This document shows positions 26,003-33,700 of a stretch of 64,000 bases of DNA, piece by piece. The position numbers and the translations under genes are program-made. The stretch is taken from NCBI RefSeq assembly GCF_009914755.1, contig NC_060926.1; one strand, written 5' to 3'. Every line of letters starts with the position of its first letter. Positions within the stretch are counted from its first letter, which is position 1. Under the pieces are notes generated by a model. It worked only from the letters and a program-made list of their open reading frames with translations, was not told where the DNA came from and searched no databases. Source of the DNA: the human T2T-CHM13v2.0 reference genome, Homo sapiens.

Positions 26003-27396
26003 TGAAAGGTGACAGCGTGCCGGCAGTCCTCACAGCCCTCGCTCGCTCTCAGCACCTCCTCTGCCTGGGCTCCCACTTTGGCGGCACTTGAGGAGCCCTT
26101 CAGCCCGCCGCTGCACTGTGGGAGCCCCTTTCTGGGCTGGCCAAGGCCGGAGCCGGCCCCCTCAGCTTGTGGGGAGGTGTGGAGTGAGAGGTGGTGGCGG
26201 GAACTGACGCTGTGCGCGGTGCTTGCGGGCCAGCGCGAGTTCCGGGTGAGCGTGGGCTGGGCAGGCCCCGCACAGGGAGCGCCCGCGGGCCCCGCCGGCC
26301 CCGGGCAGTGAGGGGCTTAGCACCTGGGCCAGCAGCTGCTGTGCTCAATTTCTCGCCGGGGCCTTAGCTGCCTTCCTGCGGGGCAGGGCTCCGGACCTGC
26401 AGCCTGCCATGCCTGAGCCTCACCCTCTCTGTGGGCTCCTGTGCGGCCGGAACCTCCCCTACGAGCGCCGCCCCCTCTTCCACGGCGCCCATTCCCATAG
26501 ACCACCCAAGGGCTGAGGAGTGGGGGCCCACCGCGCGGGACTGGCAGGCAGCTCCACCTGCGGCCCCAGTGCGGGATCCACTGGGTGAAGCCAGCTAGGC
26601 TCCTGAGTCTGGTGGGGGCGTGGAGAACCTTTATGTCTAGCTAAGGGATTGTAAATACACCCATCGGCACTCTGTATCTAGCTCAAGGTTTGTAAACACA
26701 CCAATCAGCACCCTGTGTCTAGCTCAGGGTTTGTGAATGCACCAATCCACACTCTGTATCTAGCTACTCTGGTGGGGACTTGGAGAACCTGTGTGTCCAC
26801 ACTCTGTATCTAGCTAATCTGGTGGGGACGTGGAGAACCTTTGAGTCTAGCTCAGGGATTGTAAATGCACCAATCAGCACCCTGTCAAAACAGACCACTA
26901 GACTCTACCAATCAGCAGGATGTGGGTGGGGTCAGATAAGAGAATAAAAGCAGGCTGCCCGAGCCAGCAGTGGCAACCCGCTGGGGTCCCCTTCCACACT
27001 GTGGAAGCTTTGTTCTTTAGCTCTTTGCAATGAATCTTGCTGCTGCTCACTTTTTGGGTCCACACTGCCTTTATGAGCTGTAACACTCACCGCTAAGGTC
27101 TGCAGCTTCACTCCTGAAGCCAGCCAGACCACGAACCCACGGGGAGGAAGGAACAACTCCAGATGCGCCCTCTTAAGAGATGCGCTGCCTTAAGAGCTGT
27201 AACACTCACAGCGAAGATCCGCAGCTTCACTCCTGAGCCAACGAACACACCAGAAGGAAGAAACTCTGAACACATCCGAACATCAGAAGGAACAAACTCC
27301 AGACGCACCACCTTAAGAGCTGTAACACTCACCGTGAGGGTCCACGGCTTCATTCCTGAAGTCAGTGAGACCAAGAACCCACCAATTCCGGACACA
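26003..27396 (+). mobile_element. LTR12C (ERV9) solo LTR
   Basis: tgaaaggtgacagcgtg...accaattccggacaca; CpG-rich U3; tandem CCAAT repeats (26701, 26742, 26870, 26908); GATA and AATAAAA at ~26935-26949; repeated gagctgtaacactcac; perfect 4-bp TSD gcat. Confidence 0.96.
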
Positions 27397-27559
27397 GCAT
27401 CACATATAATCATTCACCATTGTGAATTTTGACACGTTACAGGTTCCCTACCTGGATGTTCTACTGGCTTGCTGCCTTTTGTGCATGAAGACTCAAGTTT
27501 GAATTTTAAGCTTTCAACAATTATGTTATGTTCTACTAGTGTGTACTATGTTCTTATTT

Positions 27560-27790
27560 GATCCGCCCCCGCAGCTTTCTTAACACCTCTTATGACTGGG
27601 CTATGAATTTTGTACCCACTTAGATGTCCAGTCCTGGGAAATTTTGCAAATGGAAGGCAGAATTAGCGGGAGGTAGGGGGTGGGGGGTAGGCCATGGATG
27701 CGCATGCGCAGGTGTAAGTGCTAGCCCCTGCTAGGCCTTACCTTCCATCTCTCTCCTGTCAGGAGGAAAAGCACACACGTGAAGGAACCT
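27560..27790 (+). promoter_or_regulatory. Promoter-like segment at the 5' end of the MDM2 retrocopy (GC box, NRF1 palindrome, E-box)
   Basis: ccgccccc at 27563-70; TGCGCATGCGCA at 27699-27710; CACGTG at 27776-81 (a second at 28021-26). Motifs are seen; activity is not shown. Confidence 0.5.
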
Positions 27791-28915
27791 CAGCTAGATG
27801 ATCTCCCTCTCTGGCCTGTGCCGACATGTGTGACTGACAACACGATGGAGCAAGAAGTAAAGCCCGAGGGGTAACCTTAATCCCTCTGACCTGCGACCTA
27901 CTGCTTTCGCCCCCAGGAGCCTTTTTCTTCTCTGGGCCTACTGTAAGCGCCCCAGTGGCTGGAATGGAACGGTTTCCAGTCTGGAATGGTTGACACTAAT
28001 GGCCAAAGAGTAGGGGGTCCCACGTGCTTGGTTAAAAGGTGAAAGTAAATGCGGGAGTCTGGAAGGACTTCCTATAGGCACAAAATCTGCCCCCTCCCCC
28101 CCAACTTTGGGAAATATGGATTACCAACAGGTTTGTGTCAACTCAGTGTTTCAAGCACCTTGCAAGTTTCAGTTTGCGAAGAAAAGACTTTGGTGAGACC
28201 AAAGCCACTGCTTTTAAAATTGTTTAAAATTTTACAATTAGTACACAAAAGGGATTTATACTATGAATAAAGACTTCTTGGGCATTTATGGATCATAAGT
28301 TAAGAACTTCTGCACTAGAGATATATAGAGTACAGTACAGAATACAGTACACAGATCTTTCTGGGACAGAAGCTGTATTTTAGTTTGGTCAGTATCTTAT
28401 GGCTAAACTGTTATGTGAATGAGAAGCACCAGCATATTGTATAGTGTTCCAGTAATCTTCTAGGGGGTTGGTTTGGCATGCCAGCTTTCTCTGAAAGAGC
28501 ACAAGATATACAATGATCTATAGAAACTTGGTGTTAGTCATTCCACAGGAATCATTGGATTCAGGCACAGCTTGACGATAGAGTGATCAAAGGGACCCTG
28601 AGTAAGAGCTAAAGGAAGAGAAACCTTTGTCTTCAAATTGGACTTTTAGACCATGTAACTCATCTAGAATGAGAGCAATTAATCAGTGAGGCAAGGAATA
28701 CTAACATGATTAAGAACTTAGATCCAAGAACTTGTGACATGAACACAGAAATACTTACAGTATAGGTCATAGAAGTATTTTGGAAATTCAGAGAAAAAAA
28801 GAGATGACTTCTGACTAGATGAAAATTCAGATTAATTATCCAGCAAATGACAAAGTGCCACAATTCTGATGGTACTTCTCTTTCCTTTAATGAAAGGTTT
28901 GCTTTATGGGTAATA

Positions 28916-29359
28916 CAGGCTGAGTATTTCTTATTCTAAATGCTTGGGACCAGAAGTGTTTGGACAAGAAATGAATCCTGCCAGGCCAAGGCAGGCGGAT
29001 CACTTGAGGTCAGGAGTTCGAGACCAGTTTGGATAATATGGTGAAACCTCATCTCTACTTAAAAATAAAAATAGCTGTGCATGGTGGCACATGCCTGTAA
29101 TCTCAGGTACTTGGGAGGATGAGGCAGGAGAATGACTTGAACCCAGGAGGTGGAGGTTGCAGTGAGCTGAGATGGTGCACCATTGCACTCCAGCCTGGGC
29201 AACAGGGTGAGACACTATCTCGAAAAGGAAAAAAAAGAAATGTATCCTCCCCTTCTAGCCCATTTCTCCAATGAGCGTTTCCCTGAGTGTCATGGTGGTG
29301 CTCAAAAAATTTTGGATTTGGGAGCATTTCAGATTTTTGGGTTAGGGATATACAACCTG
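28916..29359 (+). mobile_element. Tigger4 (Zombi)-type DNA transposon inserted in the MDM2 retrocopy
   Basis: TIRs caggctgagtat / atatacaacctg; aaatgcttgggaccagaagtgttt; TA duplication; MDM2 homology resumes exactly (gtaaTA|agagaaatatgttgtgaa). Confidence 0.88.
28981..29237 (+). mobile_element. 5'-truncated AluS inside Tigger4
   Basis: Alu body plus A tail; TSD aagaaatgaatcct/aagaaatgtatcct. Confidence 0.92.
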
Positions 29360-29396
29360 TAAGAGAAATATGTTGTGAAAGCAGCAGTAGCAGTGA

Positions 29397-29591
<195 letters not shown>

Positions 29592-30062
29592 TAGACATGG
29601 GGAGAGTGGTACAGATTCATTTGATGAAGGTCCTAAAATTGCCTTAGCTGCCTTGGACATGTACTTTATTAAATGAAATTAATCCTCCTCTTCTAGGCCA
29701 TTTCAACAGATGTTGGGCCCTTTGTGAGAACTGACTTCCTGAAGACAAAGTGATAGAGGGAAAATAAGCTCAACCTGAGTAGAAGGGGCTTTGATGCTCC
29801 TGATTATAAAACCAAACAAAAAACCTATAGTGAATTACTCCAAAGAGTAATATGTTCATGTGTGGAGGAAAATGATGAGAGAACTCACATCAGCCTCCCA
29901 TTCCCAAGAGACCGAGCACTGTTGTCAGCCAGCAACTTCTAATAGCATCATTTAGAGCTGCCAAGAAAATGTCAAAGACCTTGAGTGGAAAGAAACAAAC
30001 AAGAAAGAAGAAAGTGTGAATCTAGTTTTCTCCTTAATGCCATTGAACTTTGTGTGCTTTAA

Positions 30063-30152
<90 letters not shown>

Positions 30153-31826
30153 TGAGTCAGTGTAAAGACAGCCAGTTCAAATGATTCTGCTTACATCCCC
30201 TAGTTGGCCTGTTCATAAAAGTAGAATTTCTATCTATATAACTCTAAATATTAGACAACATAAAAAGTATTATTAATTTTTTTACATGTATCAAAGCAAA
30301 AAAGTATCTTAGCCCATGTGCATTTATTTTCTTTTGTTCAGTTTACCTACTTTTCTGGGTGGGGGGCAGAGGGTGGTAATAAATATTTTCTTCCTTTTAG
30401 GAAAAATTTTATTTGTTTATATTTTATATTTGGGGTTCAATGTAATTGGAATTGGATATATAGCTCATCCTTTACACCTAAGCCCCTATATTTTAAATCA
30501 TGTCTACTTTCTTTTAAATGAGAAGTATCTGATTTTTGAAATATGTATGTGTTTGGGGGGATCATTTAAATGTAACTTATTTAATACTTTTCATGTAAGA
30601 AGGAAAAGTTTCTGTGAAAAATTTAATATTTAAATTTTAGATCTTAAATCTTCTCATCTTTAGTTTCTCTGCTCTTTCAGAGGCTCTTAAAATACTCTTT
30701 TGAGATAAAAAATAAATTGGTAGTTATATTTGGTGCTATGTAAGTAAAAATGTACTTATTTTCCAGTCTCTTCAGTTTGGAAAGGATACGTGGTAATGAT
30801 GGTGTCAATCAAGGTATCTTTGAGAATATCCATCATTTACCCATAAGATCAAACTTTTTAAGGCCCTCTAACAGAATATGGAGTTGTCCTGGGGGGTCCA
30901 ACCTGGTATCCAGGCCCTTTGTCACACCTGATCTCAGGATTTAGTGAAATCTATTGTTTCTCCTAAGTGGAAAACAGTTCTAAGACATTTGAAATTTACT
31001 GGGCTAGGTTCCATAATTCCTGGTAGTTGCCTAGGTTTCTGACCCTTACTTAAGGCAAGTTTAGAAACCAGTGAATTCAGAAAGATAAACTCAGAAATTT
31101 GATAAACAGAAAATTTGTTCATTTTAAAATTAGCCAGAAAGGTTACAACTTCTAAGTGAATTACAAAGTACTCATCACTTTCCTTTAAGAATCGTAGGTT
31201 CAGAACACAGAATTCTAAAATATCTCTCAAACTGTGTAGATTAACTTATTTACATATTTATATGTGAATCTTCAGCAAAGTAGTGCAAATAACCAGTGTG
31301 ATTTAGGGTCCCATTATTTTTCCTCCATATATGATCATTGTACATATTTGGGGGTGGACAATAACAAACTGAGCTATAAGTTTAGAATTGAACTGAAGGA
31401 TAATTTCTCACACCAAATTTGTGTGCCAGTTACTAACAATACATTGTTCTTACAAACTTTAAAAATGAAAGCCACACAAATAAATACCTTACATATGTAT
31501 ACATATTTATGTAGAAGATGAATGGTTGAACAGAACTTTAGCCAAAGAGTGGTCCTCAACTACAGGAAAGCTTTATTAATTTGAAATTTATAATATTTCT
31601 AGTAGAAGTAAGTAAATTTATCCTGAGGAGAGTGGGTAGTATAAATGAGATTATAAACCATGTATACCCTGACTATATGTAGCAGTGATTATGCCATTTA
31701 CAAAACATTTAAATATGGGTGCAAATGTAGTGTCATTACACATGCCTATGGATTACTAAAGTACTCTTGTCTAAATTTTTAGGTTTAATATACATATACT
31801 ATTTATTGATTTACACATAAGCAGTT

Positions 31827-32184
31827 TGATATGGTTTGGCTGTGTCCCCATCCAAATCTCATCTTGAATTGTAATTCCCATAATCCCCACATGTTGTGAG
31901 AGAGGCCTGGTGGGAGGTAATTGAATCATGGAGGCAGTTTCCCCATGAGGTTCTCGTGATAGTGAGAGTTCTCACGAGATCTGATTTTATAAGCGTCTGG
32001 CATTTTCCCTACTGCCACTCATTCTCTCTCCTGACGCCCTGAGAAGAGGTGCCTTCTACCATGATTGTAAGTCTCCCAAGGACTCCCCAGCCATGTGGAA
32101 CTGTGAGTCAACTAAACCTCTTTTCTTCATAAATTACCCAGTCTCAGGAAGTTATTTACAGCAGTGTAAGAACAGACTTATACA
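31827..32184 (+). mobile_element. THE1D-like MaLR solo LTR
   Basis: tgatatggtttggctgtgtcccc...acagacttataca; TSD cagtt/tagtt. Confidence 0.92.
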
Positions 32185-32399
32185 TAGTTTTATAAAGTGA
32201 TTAAGAAATAAATGAAAGGGAAACTATTAATGATTATGTAAGGATAACAAGCATTAATGGGCCACCCTACTTTTGACTCTAACTTTTTGACATACTTATT
32301 CACAGTGGTACACCCCCAGTTCTTATAATCTGGAAAAGCTCTACTTATAAAATATAAACACTCCAGTCTTTTACTACAGCTTTCTACACTCCCAGTTCT

Positions 32400-33700
32400 G
32401 TTTTATCTCAACCTGCCTTTCTTCTGACCAAGACCTCCCCCTTCTGTTCATTATATGTTTTCTTTATCTAAATCATAATCTACTCTCACCCCACATCCTT
32501 CTTAATCTTGAATACATTTCAATTTAGCCACTCTCTTACATGTTTTTTCACTTGTTCTATTATCATTCTCAAGAATCCATCTCACAGAACGTTAATTCTG
32601 GATCAAGTTCATTGTCATCCTTCCCTAATCAAGTGAGGTGCATTGTTTAGAGAAAAAATAGAGCCTCAAAAAGTACTGTTTTTTCATATGTATATTCTCT
32701 AGCATCAAATTGGCACTCAAGACCGACAATCCTGTTTCCTCAGTACTCCATTTCTCACTGTGAGTACAGTGGCTATTTTGAGTCTTGGCCATCTTCCTCA
32801 AGCCTTCTACTCATCAACTCTGTAGCCGATTTGGAACTGATCATCCAGCTTCTTATTTCTGAAAAAATATATGCTATTAAAATATGATATTTGTCAGCAC
32901 TAAACACCCAAAGGTAAATGTGCCTGTTCTGTCTCTTACATTCACCACAGTGTAAGACAGTCCTACTTCCTTCAAAAGATTAATTCATTTTCCAGAGTTC
33001 TAGAGTTTATAGCCTTCCATCTCCCAAGGGACCTTGCTACATTAATTTTTTTCCTTTTTCTGCAATGTCTTCAAAGAAAAAACCACTAGCTAACATTGGT
33101 TAAGGGTATATTGACACACATTCACAGATGAAGAAACTGAGATTTGTCTTAGAAATGTCCCCAACTGAGAAATGCCCGAAGTCCTGCTCTGCTTGAAAAT
33201 GCAAGAGCTAGAATAAAGATTAAAATGAGTTATCCATAGATAGAGAAAAGATTTGCTATCACATATTGATTGAATCACATAATCATTTAAACAGCTTCAG
33301 GTATTTCTCCTCCTAAATAAAATACCACAAAATGATCTGGGAATAATTGTCTCTGTCTTTCACATGTCCCAACAATCTAGCTTTACCCTGCTCTGTTTCC
33401 CTGACACCTTGATTGTGTTCTGCTTCTCTGTGAGCTCCTTGTTGTCAATAACACTTCTTCTTGATGTTTTTAATCACTCATTGTTATAAAAATGCTCTTT
33501 CACTGAGTTCCGTGGCCCCACGTACTTTGTCTTTCCTTCTACCTCTTTGGCTGCTCCTTCTTGGTTTCCTTCATGATGTTCTCCTATTTCCTTAAATGGT
33601 TCTTAATTATTGATTCTCAATAGGATTTGGTCCTTGATCACTTCATCTATTGTGATGACCTTGATATGACCTATTTGCTGATACTTCCCAGAAATGCTGA
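32400..33700 (+). mobile_element. L2 fragments (degenerate)
   Basis: Pyrimidine-rich L2 ORF2-like text (tctacctctttggctgctccttcttggtttcctt; ctatttgctgatacttccca). Confidence 0.55.

What the first reader, a model, noticed from the sequence alone, without database searches (positions are those of the whole stretch)
28272..28371. Retrocopy appears to preserve the MDM2 'alpha' cassette exon inside the p53-binding domain
Seen: a 100-nt insert between the equivalents of ...YTMKE and VLFYLGQY..., which is a parental exon-exon junction. It has no TSD or poly-A, reads DFLGIYGS*VKNFCTRDI* and contains a ~12-nt local tacag expansion. Recalled knowledge: MDM2 has an 87-nt alternative alpha exon at this junction that disrupts the p53-binding domain; 100 nt minus the expansion is about 87. 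Inference: the germline mRNA that was retrotransposed included this exon, so the isoform is ancient and was germline-expressed. Its ggatcataagttaagaacttctg motif resembles a hAT/MER end, suggesting TE exonisation.
Basis: partly seen in the sequence, partly recalled or inferred. Interest (0 to 1): 0.8.

Follow-up and report, generated by a model that had tools for sequence, protein, structure and literature searches.

The report
MDM2 retrocopy preserves transposon-derived cassette exon
An old, dead copy of the MDM2 messenger RNA on chromosome 2 still carries an extra 87-base exon, partly made from a jumping gene, that lies in an MDM2 intron and would truncate the p53-binding part of the protein, so this splice form already existed when the copy was made tens of millions of years ago.

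Summary
Window 27751-31794 (+) is one processed MDM2 retrocopy, far longer than the annotated 28175-28689, and collinear with MDM2 on C12.

**The insert.** The 100-nt insert (28272-28371) sits exactly between the exon 4 (...YTMKE52) and exon 5 (V53LFY...) equivalents. It aligns end to end with an 87-nt segment of MDM2 intron 4, C12:68794185-68794271. That segment is preceded by CCAAG| and followed by |GTGAGC.

**The extra 13 nt.** The retrocopy's surplus is a 12-nt tandem duplication plus 1 nt.

**Reading frame.** In the MDM2 frame the parental exon reads DFLGIPGSQVKNFCTRDT*, a premature stop inside the SWIB/p53-binding domain.

**Transposon origin.** The exon's acceptor and first 41 nt come from the 3' end of an old hAT-like repeat; the rest and the donor are unique sequence.

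**Conservation.** The exon is the best-conserved block of the retrocopy at 87%.

**Second insert.** It starts at 28695, right after an AG in intron 7. Its second half is unexplained.

**Not verified.** The name 'alpha exon' and present-day expression could not be checked.

The parts
27751..28108 (+). Equivalent of MDM2 exon 1 (5' UTR). It is followed directly by the exon 3 equivalent, with no room for another exon.
   Evidence: Local alignment to C12:68787742-68788058, 71.9% identity over 281 columns. The parental exon ends ...GAGGAGCAG|GTACTGG.
28110..28192 (+). Equivalent of MDM2 exon 3 (start-codon exon).
   Evidence: Aligns to C12:68788790-68788877, 69.8% over 86 columns. The parental acceptor is ...CCTTGTAG|.
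28193..28271 (+). Equivalent of MDM2 exon 4 (Val28-Glu52); ends ...ACTATGAATAAA.
   Evidence: Aligns to C12:68793135-68793206, 81.7% over 71 columns. The parental exon ends GAG|GTAAGC at 68793210. Exon limits Val28-Glu52 are given in PMC11327330.
28272..28371 (+). THE FINDING. Copy of an 87-nt cassette exon from MDM2 intron 4 (C12:68794185-68794271), here 100 nt because of a 12-nt tandem duplication (28327-28351) plus 1 nt. The first 41 nt derive from a hAT-like repeat.
   Evidence: End-to-end alignment, 75 of 86 columns identical, K2P 0.143. AG| and |GTGAGC flank the parental segment. 0 of 200 shuffles reach the score. TRF. Repeat family alignment.
28372..28694 (+). Equivalents of MDM2 exons 5, 6 and 7. 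Internal boundaries are approximately 28504/28505 and 28550/28551.
   Evidence: Exon 5: 84.8% over 125 columns. Exon 6: 80.9% over 47. Exon 7: 79.8% over 99. The parental exon 5 translates to MDM2 residues 53-96 and matches SWIB PF02201.
28695..28818 (+). Second non-canonical insert (124 nt), between the exon 7 and exon 8 equivalents. The first 43 nt (28695-28737) copy intron-7 sequence that begins right after an AG acceptor at C12:68806409. The remaining 81 nt are unexplained.
   Evidence: 28695-28737 vs C12:68806409-68806450: 36 of 42 columns identical, 0 of 200 shuffles reach the score. For 28738-28816, 17 of 200 shuffles reach the best intron-7 score, which is not significant. The own-genome search found only the window itself.
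28819..28915 (+). Equivalent of the first part of MDM2 exon 8.
   Evidence: Aligns to C12:68808348-68808450, 80.8% over 99 columns.
28916..29359 (.). Later insertion that splits the exon 8 equivalent. It is a Tc1/mariner-like short element (CAGG...CCTG ends, TA on both sides) that itself carries an Alu at about 28980-29242.
   Evidence: Junctions GTAATA|CAGGCTGAG... and ...ACAACCTG|TAAGAG. The left arm is 89-92% identical to 7 of 7 fetched dispersed copies. The Alu matches many Alus of the MDM2 locus.
29360..31794 (+). Equivalents of the rest of exon 8, exons 9-12 and about 1.6 kb of 3' UTR.
   Evidence: Collinear matches to C12:68808449-68823732, block identities 79-87%. No poly(A) tail was recognised after 31794.

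Best explanation
The region is a LINE-mediated processed retrocopy of an MDM2 mRNA that started at exon 1 and joined it directly to exon 3. From memory, that is the form made from the constitutive P1 promoter.

The template RNA had spliced in an extra 87-nt cassette exon from intron 4, between exon 4 (ending at Glu52) and exon 5 (starting at Val53). The copy therefore records that splice event.

How the exon arose. A roughly 525-nt non-autonomous hAT-like transposon sat in intron 4. Its 3' end supplies the pyrimidine-rich tract, an AG acceptor and the first 41 nt of the exon. The family consensus reads CCATGG where MDM2 has CCAAGG. The adjoining unique sequence supplies the last 46 nt and a strong GAG|GTGAGC donor.

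What the exon does. In the MDM2 frame it runs into TGA after 18 codons, in the middle of the SWIB/p53-binding domain. Inclusion therefore gives either an mRNA destined for nonsense-mediated decay or a 70-residue stub, that is, unproductive ('poison-exon') splicing that lowers functional MDM2 output.

Shown here: homology, exact splice-site boundaries, collinearity, transposon origin and the stop codon.

Inferred: use in the germ line or early embryo, an age of roughly 60-130 Myr, nonsense-mediated decay, and purifying selection on the parental exon.
For: **Collinearity.** The exon 1, 3, 4, insert, 5, 6, 7, insert 2, 8, 9-12 and 3' UTR equivalents follow the order of C12:68787742-68823732.

**Boundaries.** Insert 28272-28371 aligns over its whole length to C12:68794185-68794271. 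The homology starts at the first base after AG and stops at the last base before GTGAGC.

**Specificity.**
- 0 of 200 shuffles reach the score.
- The only genomic matches outside the window itself are in MDM2.
- The retrocopy shares the MDM2 copy's private differences from the repeat consensus, for example GGACTTCTT and GGGCAT.
- Homology continues 46 nt beyond the repeat's end.

**Repeat.**
- 38 dispersed copies at 70-81% identity among the 40 scored matches.
- In an alignment of 20 of those 38 copies, chosen for reaching the 3' side, homology ends at ...CCCAGGTTAAGAACTTCTG, which is C12:68794225.
- Copy L020 has the inverted terminus CAGGGGTTCTTAACC and CTAG-centred 8-nt flanks.

**Stop codon.** The parental exon translates DFLGIPGSQVKNFCTRDT*. 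The junction lies inside SWIB profile positions 24-62 of 74 and at MDM2 residues 52/53.

**Conservation.**
- The exon is 87.2% identical, against 82.6% pooled for coding exons 4-12 (1079 of 1307) and 79.5% for the 3' UTR (1013 of 1275).
- Of 6 parent/retrocopy differences in the repeat-derived part, 5 are changes in the retrocopy as judged by the repeat consensus.

**Single copy.** The exon-12 search finds only the parent and this locus.
Against: - No poly(A) tail or target-site duplication of the retrocopy was recognised. Its retroposed origin therefore rests on the precise loss of introns.
- Only one genome was available, so age and conservation rest on one pairwise comparison.
- The exon's higher identity is not significant against coding exons (one-sided binomial p = 0.16) and only marginal against the 3' UTR (p = 0.044).
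- In the polarisation, the sixth site is ambiguous. The plurality base of the repeat equals the retrocopy's base. The score is 5 of 5 (p = 0.03) if that site is dropped, or 5 of 6 (p = 0.11) if it is charged to the parent.
- The same retrocopy carries a second odd insert whose second half matches nothing. The template may therefore have been an unusual or aberrantly processed RNA.
- No transcript annotation or RNA-seq of MDM2 could be consulted, so present-day inclusion of the exon is not shown.
- The name 'alpha exon' was not found in any paper I could search.
Confidence: 0.88

Rival explanations
1. The intron-4 segment was spliced in only by a one-off error. The template was a rare, aberrantly processed MDM2 RNA, and the 87-nt segment is not a regulated or conserved exon.
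For: The same retrocopy contains a second non-canonical insert (28695-28818), of which only the first 43 nt can be traced to intron 7. A stop-containing RNA is expected to be scarce. The conservation statistics are weak.
Against: - Both splice sites are still intact in the human gene after about 0.2 substitutions per site of retrocopy-parent divergence.
- The exon is the best-conserved block.
- 5 of the 6 polarisable differences fell on the retrocopy side.
That is a lead, not a test.
Confidence: 0.1
2. The 100 nt entered the retrocopy after retroposition, either as an independent insertion of a copy of the same transposon family or by gene conversion from the MDM2 gene.
For: The first 41 nt belong to a dispersed repeat with many genomic copies.
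Against: - There is no target-site duplication around the insert.
- The insert starts 41 nt before the repeat's end rather than at a repeat terminus, and runs 46 nt into MDM2-specific flanking sequence.
- Its ends coincide with AG| and |GT in the gene and with the exon 4/5 junction in the retrocopy.
- It is 87% identical to the MDM2 copy, whereas other family members are 70-81% identical to that copy.
Confidence: 0.02

Closest known systems
[quoted passage not shown] I saw only its reference entry. The paper is not held, so its content is recalled.
   Same: An intronless copy of an mRNA preserves an alternative exon choice of the parent gene at the time of retroposition.
   Different: This is one specific case, in MDM2. 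The preserved event is inclusion of a stop-containing, transposon-derived exon, not a coding variant. I could not check whether that study lists this locus.
Poison (stop-containing) cassette exons coupled to nonsense-mediated decay, for example the TRA2-beta poison exon (PMC11829967, abstract and passages read) and MDM4 exon-6 unproductive splicing (PMC5333071, abstract in the search listing).
   Same: An alternative exon choice puts a premature stop far upstream of the last exon junction and so reduces productive mRNA of a dosage-sensitive regulator.
   Different: For this MDM2 exon, decay, regulation and autoregulation are all untested. MDM4 achieves its effect by skipping an exon, whereas this is an inclusion.
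Exonisation of transposable elements (Alu, MIR and DNA-transposon fragments recruited as alternative exons; recalled general knowledge).
   Same: A transposon end supplies the 3' splice site and part of a new alternative exon inside an intron.
   Different: The donor element is an old hAT-like DNA transposon, not an Alu. The exon is a hybrid, 41 nt transposon plus 46 nt unique sequence. The retrocopy gives it a minimum age.
Known MDM2 splice variants that lose the p53-binding domain (MDM2-A/-B/-C or ALT1/ALT2; titles and abstracts seen).
   Same: The p53-binding region is disrupted.
   Different: Those variants skip constitutive exons and keep the frame or the C-terminus. This one adds an intronic exon with a stop codon.

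Membership tests
Processed (retroposed) pseudogene | Parental exons joined precisely, introns absent, order and orientation kept | tested here: met
   Exon 1, 3-12 and 3' UTR equivalents are collinear with C12:68787742-68823732. The junctions fall at the parental GT/AG sites.
Processed (retroposed) pseudogene | Located away from the parent gene and disabled | tested here: met
   The retrocopy is on C2 and the parent on C12. There are many in-frame stops.
Processed (retroposed) pseudogene | 3' poly(A) tail and flanking target-site duplications | tested here: inconclusive
   No A-run follows the last homologous base, about 31794; another repeat follows. No target-site duplication was searched for systematically. 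At about 20% divergence both signals are expected to have decayed.
Cassette (alternative) exon of MDM2 | Intronic segment bounded by AG acceptor and GT donor | tested here: met
   ...CTATCCAAG|GACTTC...GATAGAG|GTGAGC at C12:68794185-68794271.
Cassette (alternative) exon of MDM2 | Found joined exactly to the flanking constitutive exons in a transcript or transcript copy | tested here: met
   In the retrocopy the segment abuts the last base of the exon 4 equivalent and the first base of the exon 5 equivalent.
Cassette (alternative) exon of MDM2 | Included in present-day MDM2 transcripts (annotation, ESTs or RNA-seq) | not testable with these tools
   No annotation of the MDM2 locus and no expression data are on hand. 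A literature search for 26 nt of the exon found 0 papers.
   The AG/GT-bounded parental segment is exactly 87 nt, at that junction.
   Searches ('exon alpha', 'alpha exon' with MDM2) returned only unrelated genes. Liang et al. 2004 (PMID 15315825) and Okoro et al. 2012 (PMC3494376) are not held.
Poison exon (alternative splicing coupled to NMD) | In-frame premature stop, more than about 50 nt upstream of the last exon junction | tested here: met
   TGA at codon 19 of the exon in the MDM2 frame, with seven constitutive exons downstream. The 50-nt rule is recalled.
Poison exon (alternative splicing coupled to NMD) | Inclusion isoform stabilised when NMD is blocked; regulated inclusion | not testable with these tools
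   This needs RNA experiments.
Poison exon (alternative splicing coupled to NMD) | Sequence constraint on the exon | tested here: inconclusive
   87.2% identity against 82.6% for coding exons (p = 0.16) and 79.5% for the 3' UTR (p = 0.044). Polarisation is 5 changes in the retrocopy, 0-1 in the parent.
hAT-superfamily non-autonomous DNA transposon (source of the exon's 5' part) | Dispersed multi-copy family with a defined terminus | tested here: met
   38 copies at 70-81% identity among the 40 scored matches. Homology of 20 aligned copies ends at ...GGTTAAGAACTTCTG.
hAT-superfamily non-autonomous DNA transposon (source of the exon's 5' part) | Short terminal inverted repeats and 8-bp target-site duplication | tested here: inconclusive
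   One copy (L020) shows CAGGGGTTCTTAACC...AAGAACTCTTG with flanks ACCTAGAT / TTCTAGTT, 5 of 8 identical. In the MDM2 copy the first ~48 nt of the element could not be aligned. Many copies are followed by nnCTAGnn-like flanks. That this pattern is typical of hAT is recalled. No Dfam or RepeatMasker was available to name the family.

The most novel reading that the evidence does not exclude
The 87-nt exon is a deeply conserved, hAT-derived poison exon through which mammals have tuned MDM2, and hence p53, dosage by unproductive splicing since about the eutherian radiation. The chr2 retrocopy is a dated fossil showing it was already spliced in, from the constitutive promoter's transcripts, in the germ line. 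The second insert may record a further lost or lineage-specific cassette exon in intron 7.
Probability: 0.3. Interest if true: 0.6.

Novelty: new member of a known kind. Interest (0 to 1): 0.4.

Why it matters
MDM2 dosage sets p53 activity, and work on MDM2 splicing has centred on exon-skipping variants seen in tumours and after stress.

A stop-containing cassette exon inside the p53-binding domain that is at least tens of millions of years old would be a candidate physiological brake on MDM2. This one has kept its splice sites and is the best-conserved block of the retrocopy-parent comparison. It would also be a possible target for splice-switching oligonucleotides.

The case is also a clean example of two known principles working together. 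A transposon end was recruited as an exon, and a processed pseudogene gives that recruitment a minimum age.

The concept itself is not new, and the exon is probably present in transcript catalogues that I could not consult.

Tried and rejected
(1) Later transposon insertion into the retrocopy: rejected. There is no target-site duplication, the ends are at splice sites rather than repeat termini, and homology runs into MDM2-unique sequence.

(2) Tracing the second half of insert 2 (28738-28816): no result.
- Alignment to the sequence behind the Alu at C12:68806478 scored 21 against a shuffle mean of 8.7, but other parts of intron 7 scored higher.
- In the best local match in the whole intron, 17 of 200 shuffles reach the score.
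- Alignment anchored on the 3' end of intron 7 was unconvincing.
- The own-genome search found only the window itself.

(3) Testing whether the intron-7 segment is part of a repeat: the search was swamped by a neighbouring Alu and says nothing.

(4) Literature.
- Ten searches were run.
- They found nothing on an MDM2 'alpha' exon and nothing on an MDM2 pseudogene (0 papers).
- The exon's sequence also found nothing (0 papers).
- Four papers that might settle the name or the precedent are not held.
- Two MDM2 reviews had no relevant passage.

(6) No cross-species comparison was possible. The only vertebrate genome on hand is the window's own.

Full report
**What is in the window.** Reading 27900-29300 shows recognisable MDM2 coding sequence interrupted by stops. 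A whole-genome search with 28100-28960 hit two places in one region of C12. I fetched 60 kb there and aligned 27500-33000 to it.

The matches are collinear and on the plus strand:

| Window | C12 |
|---|---|
| 27813-27920 | 68787802-68787905 |
| 28192-28267 | 68793135-68793206 |
| 28269-28337 | 68794182-68794249 |
| 28378-28503 | 68796399-68796525 |
| 28593-28681 | 68804133-68804221 |
| 28695-28737 | 68806409-68806450 |
| 28817-28915 | 68808348-68808450 |
| 29360-31785 | 68808449-68823720 |

Finer alignments place every block edge at a GT or AG of the C12 gene. The locus is therefore an intronless copy of the MDM2 transcript running from about 27751 to about 31794, much more than the annotated 28175-28689.

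The exon 1 equivalent abuts the exon 3 equivalent with no room for another exon. From memory, exon 1 joined to exon 3 is the form made from the constitutive P1 promoter.

A search with the last coding exon finds only the parent and this locus, so this is the only detectable MDM2 retrocopy in the genome.

**The observation.**
- The 100 nt at 28272-28371 lie between ...ACTATGAATAAA and GCTGTATTTTAG....
- They read DFLGIYGS*VKNFCTRDI* in the MDM2 frame.
- They contain a period-12 tandem duplication at 28327-28351.
- The position is an exon-exon junction. Parental exon 4 ends GAG|GTAAGC at 68793210 and exon 5 starts at 68796393.
- Exon 5 encodes residues 53-96 of full-length MDM2 and matches positions 24-62 of the 74-position SWIB/MDM2 profile.
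- PMC11327330 (passages read) gives the preceding exon as Val28-Glu52.

**What the insert is.** It aligns from its first to its last base with C12:68794185-68794271. The parental segment is exactly 87 nt, preceded by ...CTATCCAAG| and followed by |GTGAGCTG. It lies 974 nt into the 3,182-nt intron 4.

The retrocopy's 13 extra bases are the 12-nt duplication plus a single base.

The match is not chance.
- The local score is 49 against a maximum of 15 in 200 shuffles.
- Genome-wide, the only other places matching 28105-28815 are MDM2 exon 7 and this segment.

The homology starts exactly after an AG and stops exactly before a GT, and the segment is joined flush to exons 4 and 5 in the copy. The template RNA must therefore have spliced it in as an exon.

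**Origin of the exon.** A genome search with the parental intron around the exon returned 40 scored matches (of 164 candidates). One is the query itself, one is the chr2 retrocopy at 87%, and 38 are dispersed copies at 70-81% identity.

I aligned 20 of those 38, chosen because they reach the 3' side. Their homology ends at ...CCCAGGTTAAGAACTTCTG, which is C12:68794225, position 41 of the exon. After that the copies diverge, often with nnCTAGnn-like flanks.

One copy (L020) shows the inverted terminus CAGGGGTTCTTAACC about 525 nt upstream, with CTAG-centred 8-nt flanks on both sides. This fits a non-autonomous hAT-type element. That the pattern is typical of hAT is recalled, and no repeat library was available to name the family.

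The MDM2 copy aligns to nearly the whole element. It spans about 68793440-68794225 and is interrupted by an Alu at 68793639-68793938.

So the acceptor and the first 41 nt of the exon are transposon-derived, and the last 46 nt and the donor are unique. At the acceptor the family consensus reads CCATGG and MDM2 reads CCAAGG, so a single change appears to have made the AG (inference).

**Rivals.** A later transposon insertion into the retrocopy is excluded.
- The insert has no flanking duplication.
- It begins inside the repeat rather than at a terminus.
- It continues into MDM2-specific sequence.
- It shares the private substitutions of the MDM2 copy.

A one-off splicing error remains possible.
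- In its favour is a second odd insert in the same copy, 28695-28818. Its first 43 nt match intron 7 immediately after ...AAAAATAG| (36 of 42 identical; 0 of 200 shuffles). The rest matches nothing. In today's gene an Alu sits 27 nt after the end of that match.
- Against it, both splice sites of the 87-nt exon are intact today, and the exon is the best-conserved block of the whole comparison.

**Conservation and age.** Block identities:

| Block | Identity |
|---|---|
| 87-nt exon | 87.2% (75 of 86; 75 of 87 if the trimmed terminal mismatch is counted) |
| Coding exons 4-12 | 79.8-87.1%, pooled 82.6% |
| 3' UTR | pooled 79.5% |
| Exon 1 | 71.9% |
| Exon 3 | 69.8% |

The difference is not significant against coding exons (p = 0.16) and marginal against the UTR (p = 0.044).

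Using the repeat consensus as outgroup for the 41 transposon-derived bases, 5 of 6 differences are changes in the retrocopy. One is ambiguous, because the plurality base equals the retrocopy's. That gives p = 0.03 or 0.11, depending on how that site is treated. This hints at purifying selection on the parental exon but does not prove it.

K2P distances of about 0.15-0.25, combined with recalled neutral rates of 1.5-2.2e-9 per site per year, suggest roughly 60-130 Myr. This is an inference. A Tc1/mariner-like element with TA flanks, itself carrying an Alu, was inserted later into the exon 8 equivalent.

**Mechanism.** In the MDM2 frame the parental exon reads DFLGIPGSQVKNFCTRDT*. The stop is in the middle of the p53-binding domain, with seven exons downstream.

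Inclusion should therefore give a decay substrate or a 70-residue stub, that is, unproductive splicing. The retrocopy's reading at the same spot differs only by an inserted base. The exon was therefore disruptive at the time of retroposition whichever state is ancestral.

Decay, regulation and present-day use are untested.

**Comparison and novelty.** The principle that processed pseudogenes preserve splice variants is in print: Shemesh et al. 2006, of which I saw only the reference entry, so the content is recalled. Transposon exonisation and poison exons are also well known.

I found nothing in the held literature on this retrocopy or on an MDM2 'alpha' exon. Key subscription papers were not available, and transcript catalogues could not be consulted.

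I rate it a new member of known kinds: a tidy and well-supported case, moderately interesting for MDM2/p53 biology.

Noticed in passing
window 27751-31794: The MDM2 retrocopy spans about 4 kb, from the exon 1 equivalent through about 1.6 kb of 3' UTR. The RefSeq pseudogene LOC100130841 is annotated only at 28175-28689.
   Followed up: yes
window 28695-28818: A second non-canonical insert lies between the exon 7 and exon 8 equivalents. Its first 43 nt copy MDM2 intron 7 right after an AG (C12:68806409-68806450, 36 of 42 identical). The remaining 81 nt match nothing in the intron or the genome. In the present gene an Alu sits just downstream, at C12:68806478.
   Followed up: partly
window 28916-29359: A Tc1/mariner-like short element (CAGG...CCTG termini, TA on both sides) was inserted into the exon 8 equivalent. 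It carries a nested Alu at about 28980-29242. Its left arm is 89-92% identical to 7 of 7 fetched dispersed copies.
   Followed up: partly
L012 (C12:68793440-68794225): MDM2 intron 4 holds a roughly 500-nt hAT-like element, interrupted by an Alu at 68793639-68793938. The first ~48 nt of the element cannot be aligned in this copy.
   Followed up: partly
window 31820-32130: Directly after the last 3' UTR homology comes another interspersed repeat (TTTGATATGGTTTGGCTGTGTCCCCA...). It may have removed or displaced the retrocopy's poly(A) end.
   Followed up: no
window 26531-27400: Upstream of the retrocopy there is a block of repeated ...CTGTAACACTCAC...GCAGCTTCACTCCTGA... units, masked as repeat in the hub's table. 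I did not examine it.
   Followed up: no
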